4,257 nt of DNA from a virus (lineage: Duplodnaviria; Heunggongvirae; Uroviricota; Caudoviricetes), in IMG/VR virus record IMGVR_UViG_2541047167_000007. The stretch is one strand, 5' to 3'. The notes under the pieces are model-generated. The model was not told the origin of the DNA and searched no databases. It saw nothing but the letters and a program-made list of their open reading frames with translations. Of the stretch, positions 632 through 4,257 are shown one piece after another. Position 1 is the stretch's first letter; each line of letters begins with the position of its first letter. Both the position numbers and the translations under genes were made by a program.

Positions 632-1348
632 ATGGAAACCGTATCTGACGCACTGAAAGCACTGAAAAGAGCCTCTTCACATGTGGTGGCAGCTCGCCTT
701 GGAATTAGTCGTGAAGAGGCTGTCAACGAACTGTGGAAACTGAAACGCCGTGGAGAAGCGGATAACAAGGGGGCGATATGGTGGCTGACTCAGGCTGGTG
801 AAAGTGAACCGGTGTCACCGGTACCGAAAGTGACGGCGCAAATGCTGACAGAGGCGATTGAACAACATGGCCCACAAACGGCGGATGAACTGGCATTGAT
901 GTTCGGAATTACCTCCCGCCGGGCGAATTCATCGCTGGCAATGGCAATCAGCAAAGGGTGTCTGATTCGCGTGAATCAGGATGGTAAATTTCGTTACTGC
1001 ATACCGGGCGTTGATTTACCGGCAGAGCCGAAAGCAGCATCCGTAGCTGAAACGGAGGGTAAAGCCCTTCCTCAGCCAGCTGGTGTTGCGTTACCAGTCC
1101 AGGAAACGGCTGCACAGGAAGAAATTAAAACAGAAGCGGTGGAGGACATTGTGAAGTTGCAGCAATCGTTCACTGAAGCGAAAGCAGATGACCTGATTCT
1201 ACCATCGCTGCATGTGGCTAACCGCGAGCTGCGCCGGGCGAAAAGTAATGTTCAGAAGTGGGAGCGAGTCTGTGCTGCGCTACGGGAACTGAACAAACAC
1301 AGGGATATTCTCCGGGATATTACCGCCACCAGAGAGCAGCAGCGGTGA
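632..1348 (+). CDS. Hypothetical prophage protein with two winged-helix-like repeats, an Ala/Glu/Pro-rich linker and a charged C-terminal helix (possibly DUF1627 family)
   Basis: ATG 632 follows SD GGAGGA (619-624) with a 7-nt spacer; the track start at 614 is TTG and lacks an SD. Stop is TGA 1346-1348. Two similar segments ([39 protein letters not shown] and [43 protein letters not shown]) look like wHTH units. Confidence 0.6.
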
Positions 1349-1662
1349 GTGGCTGGAAGAAGTGGCGCTGGGCTGAAATCCTGATACTCCGGCAGTGTGC
1401 GGGAACGATGAGAGTCGAAAGCATCGGTTATCTGATTGGCCGTAGTGAGTCAGCCGTCAGGACGAAAGCGCGGGAACTGGGTATCAGCATGATGTTACGG
1501 GGTGATTATCACCAGTCAGCCAAATGTTCACAGCGTGATATTGAGCTGGCGTGGCAACTGCATCAGCGTGGTGTACCCCGACGGGAAATTGCCGAAAAGT
1601 TTGGGATGAAGTTGGGCGCAGTGAATAACTACGTTTATTTCGACAGGAGGGTTCAGGAGTGA
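1345..1662 (+). CDS. Small putative helix-turn-helix DNA-binding protein (start uncertain: GTG 1345 or ATG 1408)
   Basis: GTG 1345 overlaps the upstream stop (GTGA), suggesting translational coupling; the alternative ATG 1408 has only a weak GGGA SD. Stop is TGA 1660-1662. HTH-like segments are [15 protein letters not shown] and [19 protein letters not shown]. The track's longer 1258 start would overlap the upstream gene by 90 nt. Confidence 0.5.
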
Positions 1663-1961
1663 GGGTGAGGGTTTATATCGCCGGTCCGATGACGGGATAT
1701 GAAAATTTTAACCGCGAGGCATTTCACAAAACGGAAGAGGTGCTGAAACGGGAAGGGCATACCGTTTTAAACCCGGCAGTACTTCCGGACGGGCTGACTC
1801 AGCCACACTACATGGATATTTGCATGGCAATGCTCCGTTGCGTGGATGCGGTTTACATGCTGAAAGGCTGGCAGCAGTCGGCAGGTGCAGGGGCTGAGCT
1901 GGCACTGGAGGAGAAACCGGGCCATGCGGTGATTTTTCAGGAGGTGGGCAGTGAATATTGA
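1659..1961 (+). CDS. DUF4406 family protein (nucleoside 2-deoxyribosyltransferase-like fold)
   Basis: GTG 1659 overlaps the upstream TGA (GTGA), with SD AGGAGG at 1645-1650; GTG 1665 is an alternative start. The N-terminal RVYIAGPMTG motif and the 100-aa length are typical of DUF4406 as I recall the family. Stop is TGA 1959-1961. Confidence 0.7.
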   Translation: MRVRVYIAGPMTGYENFNREAFHKTEEVLKREGHTVLNPAVLPDGLTQPHYMDICMAMLRCVDAVYMLKGWQQSAGAGAELALEEKPGHAVIFQEVGSEY

Positions 1962-2268
1962 CCCGGCGATAACGATTGATATGGCCCTGAACGCCGGCCT
2001 GGCACTTCTTGGTTATTTCTACATTATGTTCTGCAGCGGACGATGGCTGTCACTGTTGTTCATGAAAAAATGGAATAAACGCCGTAAGCAGGAGCAACGC
2101 CAGAAGGCAATGGATGCATTTTTCGAAGCCTTCGGAATTGACGGCATGGAACCAGGGGATCCAGCTCGCGCAATCAGCAGAGGGGGTGTAGTAATCCTTG
2201 TATATCGGAGTGAAGAGAAAAATGACGATCACAAAACAACGTGTAGAAGAAATCATATCCCGCATTGA
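1951..2268 (+). CDS. Small single-pass membrane protein, hypothetical
   Basis: GTG 1951 follows SD AGGAGG (1939-1944) with a 6-nt spacer and overlaps the upstream gene by 11 nt. A hydrophobic segment (LNAGLALLGYFYIMFCSGRWLSLLF) is followed by a basic cluster (KKWNKRRKQEQRQK). The last ~15 codons overlap the next gene out of frame, so the 3' end is uncertain. Confidence 0.45.
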   Translation: MNIDPAITIDMALNAGLALLGYFYIMFCSGRWLSLLFMKKWNKRRKQEQRQKAMDAFFEAFGIDGMEPGDPARAISRGGVVILVYRSEEKNDDHKTTCRRNHIPH

Positions 2269-2539
2269 AATGTATGGACATGGTGCAGGGTATATCGCAG
2301 ACGAGGTTAATGATCTGGCTATACTGGCGCTGAATTTATCAAATATCGCGAACCTGAAGCGATACGAGCTTGATATGGGAGGTTGCGACTCGTGCGGTCA
2401 GGATTGTGGCGCTGATATGACTGAAGATCCTGATGGTGATTATGTCCTGTTTGATGACGTGGTTAAGTTGTTTGAATTTGATACAACCACTCAAAAGTTA
2501 GAAATCCCGGCAAAGGAGGCAGCCAGTGGGCAAGATTGA
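2222..2539 (+). CDS. Hypothetical acidic protein with a CxxCxxxC cysteine cluster
   Basis: ATG 2222 is preferred over the track's TTG 2198; GGAG/GAAGAG lie upstream. Stop is TGA 2537-2539. It contains CDSCGQDCG followed by an Asp-rich stretch. No family recognised. Confidence 0.5.
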   Translation: MTITKQRVEEIISRIEMYGHGAGYIADEVNDLAILALNLSNIANLKRYELDMGGCDSCGQDCGADMTEDPDGDYVLFDDVVKLFEFDTTTQKLEIPAKEAASGQD

Positions 2540-2963
2540 CTATCAGGCACTGCGTGAGGCAGCACAAAACTATCAATCGACGCTGGCGTGGTATCAGGCT
2601 ACCCCGGACAGCCCAAATGCTGAACGGGATTGTGATGCGGCTCTTGCTGCGTTTAAGCGTCACATCCGTCATCGGGAAGCGGATATTATCGCTGATTTGC
2701 TGGATGGACTGGAAGAAGCAAAATCACAACTCAACGAGCAGCGTGAGTATTACGAAGGCGTTATCTCTGATGGGAGCAAGCGTATTGCTGAACTGGAAGC
2801 GCGGGAAGTTCAATTACCGACTCGCTACGACCTTCGATATGGACACCCGATAAATGCAGATGAGCGACATGTCATGATACCTAAAGAAAATGGCAGTTGG
2901 CTTTACCTGATTGACCTAGAACACGCATTACGCGTCGCTGGCATTCGCATCAAAGGAGAGTGA
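2526..2963 (+). CDS. Ead/Ea22-like family phage protein
   Basis: GTG 2526 follows SD AAGGAGG (2513-2519) with a 6-nt spacer. The N-terminal IDYQALREAA, the central LNEQREYYEGVISDGSKRIAELE and the C-terminal AGIRIKGE match my recollection of lambda Ea22-type proteins. Not searched. Confidence 0.6.
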   Translation: MGKIDYQALREAAQNYQSTLAWYQATPDSPNAERDCDAALAAFKRHIRHREADIIADLLDGLEEAKSQLNEQREYYEGVISDGSKRIAELEAREVQLPTRYDLRYGHPINADERHVMIPKENGSWLYLIDLEHALRVAGIRIKGE

Positions 2964-2964
2964 G

Positions 2965-3156
2965 ATGAACGGACAAATATCAATTGTTCGACCAGGAGCA
3001 TGTGACGATCGCGAAATACGAATGATTATTCGTCTGGCGATGGGGAAAACAATAACTGCTCTCATTACTCCAGAAAATCTCGCATTAGCATTAACAGGAA
3101 AGTCAGACATGCCAGTAGAGCTAAAGCTGCGAAATGTTGAGATTAAGGTGAAATAG
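2965..3156 (+). CDS. Hypothetical small protein (63 aa)
   Basis: ATG 2965 lies 1 nt after the upstream stop, with SD AGGAGA (2953-2958). Stop is TAG 3154-3156. No family recognised. Confidence 0.5.
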   Translation: MNGQISIVRPGACDDREIRMIIRLAMGKTITALITPENLALALTGKSDMPVELKLRNVEIKVK

Positions 3157-3158
3157 CT

Positions 3159-3716
3159 ATGACCACTATTACCAAAGATCGACTGCTGACAATCCAGCAT
3201 TGGCGCGAAACATACGGACCGGGTAGCAACGTTGTGCTTCCAGCAGAAGAAGCGGAAGAGCTGGCACGGATTGCGCTGGCATCACTGGCAGCAGTATCGG
3301 ATGAACGAGCAGCCTATGAATTATTTATGGAGAAGCGTTTCGGGGAATCTGTAGATCGCCGCAGAGCAAAAAATGGCGATAGAGAATACATGGCATGGGA
3401 TATGGCGCTTGGCTGGATTATCTGGTGTCACCGCGCCGCCATGCTTCAGGCTGGAAACTTTCGGGAAAATAAGGGTTCGTCAACCAATAATTTTCGGATA
3501 ATCTCGGAAACGTCAACCAACTCTCCGGCAATCCCTGATGAGGTGTTGTCCGCAATCCTGAAGGTCGCCAGGCTTCGTGCAGATTTCGATGCTTCTGAAG
3601 TGGACAGGCGAGGTATCGGTAGTTGTCTGGATGAGGCCGAGCAAGAACTTATCGTTACCATTAACGAATACGCCAGTCAGATCGCAGTAGAAGCGACACA
3701 GGGGGAGAACCAATGA
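3159..3716 (+). CDS. Hypothetical prophage protein (185 aa)
   Basis: ATG 3159 lies 2 nt after the upstream stop, with AAGGTGA upstream. Stop is TGA 3714-3716. Coding-like composition; no family recognised. Confidence 0.6.
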   Translation: MTTITKDRLLTIQHWRETYGPGSNVVLPAEEAEELARIALASLAAVSDERAAYELFMEKRFGESVDRRRAKNGDREYMAWDMALGWIIWCHRAAMLQAGNFRENKGSSTNNFRIISETSTNSPAIPDEVLSAILKVARLRADFDASEVDRRGIGSCLDEAEQELIVTINEYASQIAVEATQGENQ

Positions 3717-3790
3717 GCCGGCCAGATGCATTTGCAGGCGTTGCTATAGCTATTGCTTTTCTAGTATATGTTATTTGTCGGTGGGGGTAA
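3713..3790 (+). CDS. Candidate small hydrophobic peptide (25 aa: MSRPDAFAGVAIAIAFLVYVICRWG)
   Basis: ATG 3713 overlaps the upstream stop (ATGA), with a GGGGGAG SD at 3701-3707. One predicted transmembrane helix. Stop is TAA 3788-3790. Absent from the ORF track, presumably for length. Confidence 0.3.
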   Translation: MSRPDAFAGVAIAIAFLVYVICRWG

Positions 3791-3825: not shown

Positions 3826-3930
3826 ATGTCGGATGATATTTCACTGGTAATGGAAGGCGCTCTGGCTGTTATTGCTGTTGTGGGTGTTTACTGCCTGGTT
3901 GTGTTTTTGATGGAGCGCCTGGGGAACTGA
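3826..3930 (+). CDS. Candidate small membrane peptide (34 aa: MSDDISLVMEGALAVIAVVGVYCLVVFLMERLGN)
   Basis: ATG 3826 sits 5 nt after a strong SD AAGGGAGGG (3813-3821). Acidic N-terminus followed by a ~20-residue hydrophobic helix. Stop is TGA 3928-3930. Absent from the ORF track. Confidence 0.4.
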   Translation: MSDDISLVMEGALAVIAVVGVYCLVVFLMERLGN

Positions 3931-3940
3931 ATTCATTCCG

Positions 3941-3956
3941 TATGGGAATTCCCATA
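3941..3956. repeat. Perfect 16-bp palindrome TATGGGAATTCCCATA, centred on GAATTC
   Basis: Read directly: 3941-3956 is its own reverse complement, and the flanks CCG / TCGG extend it imperfectly. It lies 11 nt after the 34-aa ORF stop and 15 nt before the candidate hok -35. Confidence 0.9.
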
Positions 3957-3970
3957 TCGGGCAAAACGGT

Positions 3971-3998
3971 TTGCTGTAAAGCGAGAGTTAAGTAGAAT
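3971..3998 (+). promoter_or_regulatory. Candidate sigma70 promoter for the hok/mok mRNA
   Basis: -35 TTGCTG (3971-3976), 16-nt spacer, -10 TAGAAT (3993-3998); this would give a ~115-nt leader before the mok-like ATG. Pattern match only. Confidence 0.3.
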
Positions 3999-4016
3999 TG
4001 CTGCGGGTGCTTGAGG

Positions 4017-4052
4017 CTGTCTGCCTCGGGCATGCCACCGTAAGGCAGACAG
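4017..4052 (+). other. Stem-loop in the predicted hok mRNA 5' leader (10-bp stem, 16-nt loop)
   Basis: CTGTCTGCCT (4017-4026) is the exact reverse complement of AGGCAGACAG (4043-4052). No U-tract follows on either strand, so it is not a canonical terminator. Confidence 0.5.
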
Positions 4053-4128
4053 AGAAAAGCCCCAGTTAACATTACGCGTCCTGCAAGACGCTTAACATTA
4101 ATCTGAGGCCCAATCTATATGAAAGACA
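4050..4128 (-). ncRNA. sok: Predicted Sok-like antisense RNA, complementary to the mok-like translation initiation region
   Basis: A minus-strand promoter is predicted just downstream. On the minus strand GCCUCAG (4109-4103) pairs with CUGGGGC (4065-4059), including one G-U wobble, followed by UUUUCUCU (4058-4051), a terminator-like structure. The RNA would cover the mok-like SD (4105-4108) and ATG (4119). Inference by analogy to hok/sok. Confidence 0.4.
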
Positions 4129-4257
4129 AATCTAGGTTAGCCTCTTACGCGCCGAAAGGCAAGGAGAAGCAGGCTATGAAGCAGCAAAAGGCGATGTTAA
4201 TCGCCCTGATCGTCATCTGTTTAACCGTCATAGTGACGGCACTGGTAACGAGGAAAG
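4119..4257 (+). CDS. mok: Mok-like upstream reading frame, in frame with hok (19-codon N-terminal extension: MKDKSRLASYAPKGKEKQA); 3' partial
   Basis: ATG 4119 follows GAGG (4105-4108) with a 10-nt spacer; the frame runs without a stop into the hok ATG at 4176. This mirrors chromosomal mok/hok pairs, which as I recall share frame and stop codon. Confidence 0.35.
   Translation, partial: MKDKSRLASYAPKGKEKQAMKQQKAMLIALIVICLTVIVTALVTRK
4134..4162 (-). promoter_or_regulatory. Candidate promoter for the sok-like antisense RNA
   Basis: Minus strand: -35 TTGCCT (4162-4157), 17-nt spacer, -10 TAACCT (4139-4134), predicting a transcription start near 4126-4128. The -10 is weak (TANNNT only). Confidence 0.3.
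4176..4257 (+). CDS. hok: Hok/Gef-family type I toxin (RelF/HokD-like N-terminus); 3' end outside the window
   Basis: ATG 4176 follows SD AAGGAGA (4161-4167) with an 8-nt spacer. The translation MKQQKAMLIALIVICLTVIVTALVTRK matches the conserved Hok/Gef/RelF N-terminal transmembrane region from memory. The frame is open to the window end. Confidence 0.8.
   Translation, partial: MKQQKAMLIALIVICLTVIVTALVTRK

What the first reader, a model, noticed from the sequence alone, without database searches (positions are those of the whole stretch)
3960..4257. Apparently complete hok/mok/sok-type type I toxin-antitoxin locus at the distal end of the prophage operon
The Hok-family ORF is preceded by the expected regulatory pieces: an in-frame mok-like start 57 nt upstream, a predicted antisense RNA with its own promoter and terminator covering the mok initiation region, a candidate hok promoter, and a 10-bp stem-loop at the leader's 5' end. 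This suggests an intact, regulatable killer locus rather than a decayed remnant. A prophage-borne hok could act in prophage maintenance or phage exclusion.
Basis: partly seen in the sequence, partly recalled or inferred. Interest (0 to 1): 0.6.

Follow-up and report, generated by a model that had tools for sequence, protein, structure and literature searches.

The report
Prophage hok/mok/sok toxin-antitoxin cassette
This is an ordinary, already catalogued hok/mok/sok killer-gene cassette (hokD/hokW type) inside a lambda-like E. coli prophage; its 5' control elements look intact, but the toxin gene is cut after codon 27 by the end of the window.

Summary
Window 3962-4257 is the 5' two-thirds of a hokD/hokW-type type I toxin-antitoxin cassette.

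- **RNA and protein matches:** Rfam RF01794 scores 117.7 bits (cut-off 59) over 4005-4181. The 27 visible Hok codons pass Pfam HOK_GEF and match K-12 hokD at the DNA level.
- **mok:** the ATG at 4119 lies 57 nt upstream of hok and in frame. Annotated mokC/hokC (K-12) and mokW/hokW (phage 933W) have the same layout.
- **Sok:** annotated sokW maps onto minus-strand 4127->4055, a 73-nt RNA with a 16-nt tail, a long G·U-containing hairpin and UUUU.
- **Relatives:** E. coli prophage loci 97-99% identical carry a full 51-aa HokD, the 3' fbi box and a terminator.

Two corrections:
1. The cassette is not at the end of the operon. DUF968, RusA and Q genes follow it in relatives.
2. The 3' half (Hok C-terminus, fbi) cannot be checked in this window.

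The only unusual point is the 24-nt hypervariable patch (Sok tail and first mok codons). This window carries an allele found in no hok locus of the collections searched, with a 2-nt insertion.

The system is known: annotated in 933W in 1999 and tested experimentally in 2021. Interest is low.

The parts
3971..3998 (+). Candidate hok promoter: -35 TTGCTG (3971-3976), 16-nt spacer, -10 TAGAAT (3993-3998). It is a weak promoter. The left boundary of the mobile hok cassette lies at about 3962.
   Evidence: Read directly from the sequence. TAGAAT sits at this fixed distance from GGGTGC in 104 of 120 prophage loci, even where the upstream flanks are unrelated. Homology to 933W starts at about 3962. 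The consensus scanner did not call it. It has not been tested experimentally.
4005..4016 (+). Predicted 5' end of the hok mRNA and the tac element (GGGUGCUUGAGG). tac pairs with the 3' fbi box in full-length mRNA and with ucb after 3' processing.
   Evidence: Position 1 of the Rfam RF01794 match is 4005. The element aligns with the first bases of the R1-type and hokC leader matches to RF01794. In the fold of the composite full-length mRNA, nt 1-12 pair with nt 377-389, which is fbi supplied by a relative.
4017..4052 (+). 5' stem-loop of the leader, with a 10-bp stem (4017-4026 pairing with 4043-4052).
   Evidence: Fold energy -26.4 kcal/mol, z = -3.65. One pair in this stem shows A-U in 49 rows and G-C in 16 rows of the 73-row alignment, a compensatory change.
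4057..4063 (+). ucb box (AAGCCCC), the alternative pairing partner of tac in the 3'-processed, active mRNA.
   Evidence: Rfam consensus structure. In the fold of the truncated composite mRNA, nt 1-8 pair with nt 53-59.
4055..4127 (-). Sok antisense RNA gene, about 73 nt. It has a 16-nt 5' tail (4127->4112), a hairpin (4111->4059) and a U-tract (4058->4055).
   Evidence: Annotated sokW of 933W projects onto 4127->4055. Annotated sokC of K-12 overlaps its mok by the same 9 nt. Fold z = -5.5. All 40 distinct variants fold better on this strand than on the + strand, with means of -29.0 and -18.6 kcal/mol, and they share conserved G·U pairs.
4134..4162 (-). Sok promoter: -35 TTGCCT (4162->4157), 17-nt spacer, -10 TAACCT (4139->4134). 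The predicted transcription start is G at 4127.
   Evidence: Read directly from the sequence. The hexamers align with R1-type TTGCGC/TATCCT. Entropy is near zero in 71 relatives, although 4160-4162 were fixed by the search pattern. Mutations at the sokW -10 abolish antitoxin activity in Sp5 (PMC8621323).
4110..4133 (.). Hypervariable patch covering the Sok 5' tail, the loop and 5' arm of the target hairpin, the mok start codon and mok codons 2-5. The window carries a singleton allele.
   Evidence: Mean column entropy is 0.69 bits over 4112-4133, against 0.02-0.19 in the other segments. There are 23 alleles among the roughly 120 prophage loci. The window allele is absent from every hok locus in the collections searched.
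4105..4144 (+). Sok-target hairpin (GAGGC...GCCUC). It contains the putative mok Shine-Dalgarno GAGG (4105-4108) and the mok AUG (4119-4121).
   Evidence: Fold energy -10.9 kcal/mol, z = -2.1, which is modest. This is Rfam helix 4, with 85% of cells paired across the 73 sequences. It forms in the truncated-mRNA fold.
4119..4257 (+). mok reading frame. It is in frame with hok and starts 57 nt upstream. It is open to the window end and would be 70 codons in relatives.
   Evidence: Translation MKDKSRLASYAPKGKEKQA followed by Hok. Annotated mokC/hokC and mokW/hokW have the same geometry. About 100 of 122 loci have it.
4176..4257 (+). hok toxin ORF, codons 1-27 only, cut by the window end. Its Shine-Dalgarno AAGGAG is at 4161-4166.
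   Evidence: Pfam HOK_GEF 28.4 bits against a cut-off of 22. The DNA is identical to K-12 hokD from 4162 onward. Relatives give a 51-aa Hok, in 66 of 122 loci the exact HokD sequence.

Best explanation
Window 3962-4257 is the left two-thirds of a roughly 460-bp mobile hok/mok/sok type I toxin-antitoxin cassette of the hokD/hokW subfamily. It sits in the region between the replication genes and Q of a Rac-like lambdoid E. coli prophage.

Mechanism, taken from the R1 and hokW paradigms:
1. A weak promoter (TAGAAT) makes a stable hok mRNA of about 415 nt starting at G4005.
2. In full-length mRNA the 5' tac box pairs with the 3' fbi box. This keeps the RNA closed to both ribosomes and Sok.
3. Slow 3' trimming removes fbi. 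tac then re-pairs with ucb (4057-4063), and the hairpin 4105-4144 that presents the mok start is formed.
4. The short-lived 73-nt Sok RNA (4127->4055) is made from its own promoter. Its 16-nt tail pairs with the mok start region, which blocks mok translation and leads to cleavage of the duplex by RNase III.
5. hok translation depends on ribosomes coming through mok, so hok stays silent while Sok is made.
6. When Sok supply stops (prophage loss, transcription shut-off or prophage induction), Mok and Hok are made and Hok depolarises the inner membrane.

In a prophage the most likely pay-off is helping lysis and phage release at induction, as shown for hokW-sokW. Prophage retention and exclusion of other phages are secondary possibilities.

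Shown here: homology, element positions, RNA folds, strand asymmetry and conservation. Inferred from the paradigms: transcript ends, coupling, toxicity and biological role.
For: - **RNA family:** Rfam RF01794 matches at 117.7 bits over its full length, 4005-4181.
- **Protein family:** Pfam HOK_GEF matches the 27-aa fragment, and scores 82.9 bits on the full protein of a 98.6%-identical relative.
- **Annotation in relatives:** PGAP annotates hokD at the matching position, with 659 genomes covering at least 80% of the 558-bp query.
- **Geometry:** annotated mokW/hokW/sokW in 933W have the same layout, and sokW maps onto 4127->4055. K-12 mokC/hokC/sokC also match.
- **Sok strand:** it is always the better folder, -29.0 against -18.6 kcal/mol in 40 of 40 variants, with conserved G·U pairs.
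- **mRNA switch:** the composite mRNA folds into tac-fbi, and switches to tac-ucb plus the target hairpin after 3' truncation.
- **Downstream parts in relatives:** fbi CCTCAACGCACCC lies near +374 in 93 of 122 relatives, and Hok is 51 aa in nearly all of them.
- **Promoter conservation:** the hok -10 is conserved in 104 of 120 loci across unrelated flanks.
- **Experiments on the homologue:** HokW is toxic, sokW neutralises it, sokW disappears after mitomycin C, and phage release halves without the locus (PMC8621323).
Against: - The toxin's C-terminal half, fbi and the terminator are outside the window, so intactness of this particular copy is unproven.
- This copy has a unique 2-nt insertion before the mok AUG. 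It widens the GAGG-AUG spacing to 10 nt, against 8 nt in the relatives read, and leaves a mismatch in the target hairpin.
- Both promoters are poor consensus matches and were not called by the scanner.
- Structurally intact chromosomal hokA, hokB and hokC loci were reported unable to mediate post-segregational killing (cited in the preprint). Sequence intactness therefore does not guarantee activity.
- The NCBIfam Hok models score below their cut-offs.
Confidence: 0.9

Rival explanations
1. The cassette is a silent or decaying copy. Like most chromosomal hok loci of K-12, it no longer kills, either because of a lesion beyond the window or because mok translation is weakened in this allele.
For: - The 3' half is unseen.
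- The unique 2-nt insertion lengthens the spacing between the putative Shine-Dalgarno and the mok AUG to 10 nt.
- A few relatives carry truncated Hok, for example one of 37 aa.
- K-12 hokD is itself a truncated copy. Its homology starts only at window position 4162 and it has no Rfam leader hit.
- Intact chromosomal loci were reported inactive for post-segregational killing.
Against: - Every 5' element is present and matches conserved positions.
- Outside the patch, the aligned window part of the locus is identical to a relative that has a full 51-aa Hok, fbi and a terminator.
- The patch is variable in all loci, and it preserves the ATG and the 57-nt frame.
Confidence: 0.12
2. The cassette is active, but its main role is prophage addiction (post-segregational killing of cells that lose the prophage) or abortive-infection defence against other phages, rather than help with lysis at induction.
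For: - The 933W annotation calls the homologue 'prophage maintenance'.
- R1 hok/sok stabilises plasmids and reduces T4 plating (as cited in PMC8621323).
- The diversity of Sok-tail alleles (23 alleles) would fit private antidotes for separate elements.
Against: - The only direct experiment on a prophage homologue found a lysis and phage-release benefit. That paper reports no tests of maintenance or exclusion for it.
- hok genes are not enriched near defence systems (heading of section 8 of the preprint, and its discussion).
- Four same-genome locus pairs gave no sign that identical alleles are avoided: one of the four was identical.
Confidence: 0.3
3. The Rfam 'sok' hit on the + strand means the small RNA is encoded on the + strand, and the minus-strand RNA is an artefact of reading a palindromic region.
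For: RF01794 is named 'sok antitoxin' and matches the + strand.
Against: - In K-12 the same model hits the hokC sense strand (L005 minus strand, 602-754), while sokC is annotated on the opposite strand at 653-711. The model therefore describes the hok mRNA leader.
- G·U pairs make the hairpin stable only on the minus strand.
- sokW is annotated on the antisense strand.
Confidence: 0.02

Closest known systems
mokW/hokW/sokW of Shiga-toxin phages 933W and Sp5 (VT2-Sakai)
   Same: - 92.6% DNA identity over 99% of 3960-4257.
- The same 57-nt in-frame mok and the same 9-nt Sok/mok overlap.
- A nearly identical Sok hairpin, and identical DNA across the first 27 Hok codons.
- Shown experimentally to be a working type I toxin-antitoxin pair (PMC8621323).
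   Different: - The Sok tail and the first mok codons differ: GUCUUUCAUAUAGAUU here against GUUCAGCAUGGAUU, and MKDKS against MLNTC.
- This Sok is 73 nt rather than 71 nt.
- The HokW C-terminus (VFVDYESEK) differs from the HokD type (VFTAYEPEE) seen in this window's closest relatives.
- In 933W the cassette lies near one end of the genome record, at 58.5 kb of 61.7 kb, rather than between the replication genes and Q.
hokD (relF) of the Qin cryptic prophage, E. coli K-12
   Same: - The DNA is identical from 4162 to the window end.
- The downstream neighbours are the same in relatives (DUF968/ydfU, then Q/ydfT).
- PGAP names the relatives hokD.
   Different: K-12 hokD is a truncated cassette. 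Everything left of the hok Shine-Dalgarno (promoter, tac, ucb, sok, mok) has been replaced by relBE, and there is no Rfam leader hit. The window has all of these parts.
hokC (gef)/mokC/sokC of E. coli K-12
   Same: The same architecture, a 57-nt in-frame mok, and a Rfam leader hit of 118 bits.
   Different: - The Sok hairpin is 16-18 nt shorter (sokC is 59 nt).
- It is a chromosomal locus flanked by IS186, not a prophage locus.
- The Hok sequence differs (50 aa).
hok/mok/sok (parB) of plasmid R1
   Same: All named elements align: tac, ucb, the Sok promoter hexamers, the target hairpin, the hok Shine-Dalgarno and fbi. The Rfam hit is 88.9 bits.
   Different: - The leader DNA is much more divergent (Rfam 88.9 against 117.7 bits; alignment), and the Hok protein is only 44% identical to HokW-type Hok.
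- mok is in the +1 frame, 58 nt upstream.
- It is plasmid-borne, with a proven role in post-segregational killing.

Membership tests
[quoted passage not shown] | A small (about 50 aa) hydrophobic Hok/Gef toxin ORF | tested here: met
   The 27 codons in the window score 28.4 bits against a cut-off of 22. Their DNA is identical to K-12 hokD. The full 51-aa protein of a 98.6%-identical relative scores 82.9 bits. The C-terminal half, including Cys30, lies outside the window.
[quoted passage not shown] | The conserved hok mRNA leader fold (tac/ucb hairpin, Sok-complement hairpin, target hairpin) | tested here: met
   RF01794 matches at 117.7 bits against a gathering score of 59, over the full model length. 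The structure keeps 77% of cells paired across 73 sequences, against 32-42% for slid controls, and 8 pairs show changes on both sides.
[quoted passage not shown] | A mok reading frame that starts upstream of hok and overlaps it | tested here: met
   ATG at 4119, 57 nt upstream, with an open frame. Annotated mokC and mokW have the same geometry.
[quoted passage not shown] | A cis-encoded antisense Sok RNA with its own promoter that covers the mok start | tested here: met
   Supported by homology and structure only. sokW projects to 4127->4055, the fold has z = -5.5, strand asymmetry holds in 40 of 40 variants, and the promoter hexamers align with R1. No transcript data are available.
[quoted passage not shown] | A 3' fbi box that pairs with tac, followed by a terminator | not testable with these tools
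   This lies beyond the window end. It is present in relatives (93 of 122 exact). The composite fold gives tac-fbi pairing, but its 3' part is borrowed from L001.
[quoted passage not shown] | Hok is toxic and Sok neutralises it | not testable with these tools
   Shown experimentally for the homologue hokW-sokW (PMC8621323), and HokD is listed among previously characterised toxic controls (preprint). It has not been shown for this allele.
NCBIfam Hok family models (NF007279, NF007290) | A score above the curated cut-off | tested here: not met
   Even the full-length relative scores 48.5 bits against a cut-off of 73, and 40.2 against 89. These models are tuned to other Hok subfamilies. The Pfam family model is met.

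The most novel reading that the evidence does not exclude
The 24-nt patch (Sok tail, mok start and target loop) may be under diversifying selection, so that each of the several hok cassettes in one genome has a private antidote. E. coli genomes hold up to 10 matching places. On this reading the window carries a specificity allele not sampled before, with a 2-nt longer tail, and its Sok would not cross-protect against other prophages' hok mRNAs.
Probability: 0.3. Interest if true: 0.35.

Novelty: already known. Interest (0 to 1): 0.12.

Why it matters
It matters little beyond correct annotation.

- The window shows the intact form of the cassette that survives only as a truncated hokD (relF) in E. 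coli K-12.
- It adds one more allele to a very variable Sok-recognition patch.
- Prophage hok/sok cassettes are common, and one close homologue is already known to help phage release at induction.
- If the patch alleles prove to be mutually orthogonal, that would explain how many copies coexist in Shiga-toxin-producing strains. That question concerns the family, not this locus.

Tried and rejected
- **Exact-match hunts for the window's patch allele:** a 32-mer and a 20-mer against GTDB species genomes, a sensitive 55-nt search in 5,426 E. coli genomes (best 90.9%), IMG/VR and metagenomes. The single metagenome hit, L127, is an unrelated chance 20-mer with no hok context.
- **Consensus promoter/terminator scanner:** it found nothing relevant. 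I do not count this against the elements, because family promoters are weak by design and the Sok hairpin is bulged.
- **NCBIfam Hok models:** below cut-off even for full-length HokD.
- **Reading the Rfam hit as evidence for the Sok strand:** rejected, because the model is built on the hok sense strand.
- **Test for avoidance of identical Sok-tail alleles within one genome:** only four same-genome pairs were available, three different and one identical. The chance expectation is about 10% identical, so the result is inconclusive.
- **Minus-strand ORF 3869-4072 (67 aa):** treated as spurious, because it overlaps the conserved RNA elements.
- **Palindrome at 3941-3956:** considered as a terminator that would insulate hok, and rejected because neither strand has a U-run after it.

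Full report
**Observation.** The window ends inside an ORF that starts at ATG 4176 and reads MKQQKAMLIALIVICLTVIVTALVTRK. An in-frame ATG at 4119 lies 57 nt upstream, with no stop codon in between. The 27-residue fragment already passes Pfam HOK_GEF at 28.4 bits against a cut-off of 22. Rfam RF01794 matches 4005-4181 over its full length at 117.7 bits against a gathering score of 59, E = 2.5e-27. The 10-bp stem (4017-4026 with 4043-4052) folds as described. So does the minus-strand RNA, with a 16-nt free tail, a long hairpin and UUUU (-30.8 kcal/mol, z = -5.5). All parts of the observation are therefore real. The simple consensus scanner reported neither promoter nor the terminator, so those rest on comparative evidence.

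**Origin of the window.** The whole window is 99.1% identical over 95-96% of its length to a Rac-like lambdoid prophage of E. coli O157:H7. In that relative the gene order is racR, ydaT, O/P-type replication genes, a train of small genes, hokD, a small ORF, DUF968, RusA and Q. The hok cassette is thus in the middle of the rightward early gene train. The 'distal end' is only the window edge. The 558-bp segment 3700-4257 matches 659 complete E. coli genomes over at least 80% of its length. PGAP annotates hokD at the corresponding place.

**Comparison with annotated and tested systems.**
- *Phage 933W (annotated in 1999):* it carries mokW, hokW and sokW at 92.6% identity to 3960-4257. mokW starts 57 nt upstream of hokW and shares its stop codon. 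sokW is a 71-nt antisense RNA that overlaps the first 9 nt of mokW. Projected through a pairwise alignment, sokW lands on window 4127->4055, a 73-nt RNA.
- *K-12 mokC/hokC/sokC:* these show the same 57-nt and 9-nt geometry.
- *R1-type plasmid locus (L004):* it aligns element by element. This covers the 5' GGCGCUUGAGG box, the Sok promoter hexamers (TTGCGC/TATCCT against TTGCCT/TAACCT here), the hok Shine-Dalgarno and the 3' fbi.
- *K-12 hokD (relF):* it shares identical DNA only from window position 4162 onward and has no Rfam leader hit. The window therefore holds the intact form of a cassette that is truncated in K-12.

**Strand of the small RNA.** RF01794 is called 'sok' but matches the + strand here. 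In K-12 it matches the hokC sense strand, while sokC is annotated on the opposite strand. The model therefore describes the hok mRNA leader. It proves homology of the locus, not the existence or orientation of Sok. Independent support for a minus-strand RNA comes from folding. All 40 distinct variants of the 4051-4127 segment fold better as the minus strand (mean -29.0 kcal/mol) than as the plus strand (mean -18.6). Several invariant G·U pairs would be A·C mismatches on the plus strand.

**Population view.** A pattern scan of IMG/VR returned 120 loci, of which 118 are hok cassettes of this type.
- Among 122 loci analysed, Hok is 51 aa in nearly all, and 66 carry the exact HokD sequence.
- The fbi box CCTCAACGCACCC sits about 374 nt from the predicted mRNA start in 93 of them.
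- The hok -10 TAGAAT is kept at a fixed distance from GGGTGC in 104 of 120, even where upstream flanks are unrelated. This places the left edge of the mobile cassette at about 3962.
- Column entropy is near zero along the leader, except for a patch at about 4110-4133. Mean entropy over 4112-4133 is 0.69 bits, against 0.02-0.19 in the other segments. That patch is the Sok 5' tail, the mok start codon and the first mok codons.
- Part of the invariance at 4009-4017 and 4160-4169 was imposed by my search pattern.
- mok starts 57 nt upstream (in frame, 70 codons) in about 100 loci. It starts 56 nt upstream (19 codons, with TGA overlapping the hok ATG) in 15, and 58 nt upstream (68 codons out of frame, as in R1) in 7. 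The act of translating through the hok start therefore appears to be conserved, not the Mok protein.

**What is particular to this window.** Its patch allele, CCCAATCTATATGAAAGACAAATCTAGG, is a singleton among the 23 alleles seen. It was not found in a hok context anywhere:
- 5,426 complete E. coli genomes, best 90.9% over 55 nt;
- GTDB species genomes;
- IMG/VR;
- metagenomes, where the single hit is an unrelated chance match.

The allele is closest to the E. coli 042-type allele. It differs by a 2-nt insertion before the ATG and a few substitutions, while the rest of the leader matches the 14EC047/O157-type loci. The insertion lengthens Sok by 2 nt. It also widens the spacing between the putative Shine-Dalgarno GAGG and the mok AUG to 10 nt, against 8 nt in the relatives read. 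Sok and its target are copied from the same DNA, so complementarity is kept automatically. Whether mok translation is weakened is unknown.

**Mechanism.** I joined the window's 5' part to the 3' part of the 98.6%-identical relative L001 and folded the resulting 419-nt RNA.
- In the minimum-energy structure, nt 1-12 (tac) pair with nt 377-389 (fbi).
- After fbi and the terminator are removed, the 5' end re-pairs with nt 53-59 (ucb), and the GAGGC...GCCUC hairpin that holds the mok start forms.

This reproduces the switch described for R1. I take the rest from that paradigm and from hokW-sokW:
- Unstable Sok blocks mok, and hok is translated only through coupling to mok.
- RNase III cleaves the Sok-mRNA duplex.
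- Loss of Sok lets the stable mRNA pool produce Hok, which damages the inner membrane.

For hokW-sokW, toxicity, neutralisation by sokW and a partial dependence on RNase III and Hfq were shown experimentally. So were RecA-dependent loss of sokW after mitomycin C and a two-fold drop in phage release without the locus (PMC8621323). A 2025-26 preprint reports that hok genes are enriched about four-fold in prophages. It also recalls that intact chromosomal hokA, hokB and hokC loci failed to mediate post-segregational killing.

**Verdict.** The finding is correct and the system is already known. The open points are local ones: whether this copy's unseen 3' half is intact, and whether its private Sok-tail allele has any functional meaning. 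I rate identity as a hok/mok/sok cassette at 0.9. The specific biological role in this prophage is much less certain. Interest is low.

Noticed in passing
window 3941-3956: A perfect 16-bp palindrome, TATGGGAATTCCCATA (containing an EcoRI site), sits just left of the hok cassette boundary. The same flank occurs in 14 of 120 prophage loci. Neither strand has a U-run after it, so it is not an obvious terminator. It could be a protein-binding site or a recombination joint.
   Followed up: partly
window 3713-3790 and 3826-3930: Two very small hydrophobic ORFs (25 aa, MSRPDAFAGVAIAIAFLVYVICRWG, and 34 aa, MSDDISLVMEGALAVIAVVGVYCLVVFLMERLGN) lie directly upstream of hok. A CDS of the same size (105 nt) is annotated at the corresponding position in RefSeq relatives as a hypothetical protein. 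Neither ORF has a Pfam match.
   Followed up: partly
L005 602-754 (K-12 hokC locus) and window 4005-4181: Rfam RF01794, named 'sok antitoxin', is oriented as the hok mRNA leader. It is antisense to the annotated sokC, so a hit to it gives the wrong strand for the antitoxin RNA.
   Followed up: yes
prophage loci L007-L126, region equivalent to window 4119-4178: Among near-identical cassettes, mok occurs in all three frames relative to hok. It starts 57 nt upstream in about 100 loci, 56 nt upstream in 15 (a 19-codon ORF whose TGA overlaps the hok ATG), and 58 nt upstream in 7.
   Followed up: yes
L001 6639-6720 (3' end of the hok mRNA in a relative, beyond the window): A weak sub-threshold Rfam match to isrK (27.2 bits against a gathering score of 50) lies over the fbi and terminator region.
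   Followed up: no
L001 6610-6617 (Hok Tyr47 codon in relatives, beyond the window): The sequence CTTACGAA around the Tyr47 codon resembles the TadA editing context. [quoted passage not shown]
   Followed up: no
L042/L077, L049/L090, L053/L093, L065/L094: Prophage pairs from the same genome carry different Sok-tail alleles in three of four cases. The sample is too small to test whether co-resident cassettes avoid sharing an antidote.
   Followed up: partly
window 1258-3716: The upstream ORFs form a tight same-strand train with overlapping stop and start codons (for example 1659 against 1662, 1951 against 1961, and 3713 against 3716). This is typical of translationally coupled lambdoid early genes.
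   Followed up: no
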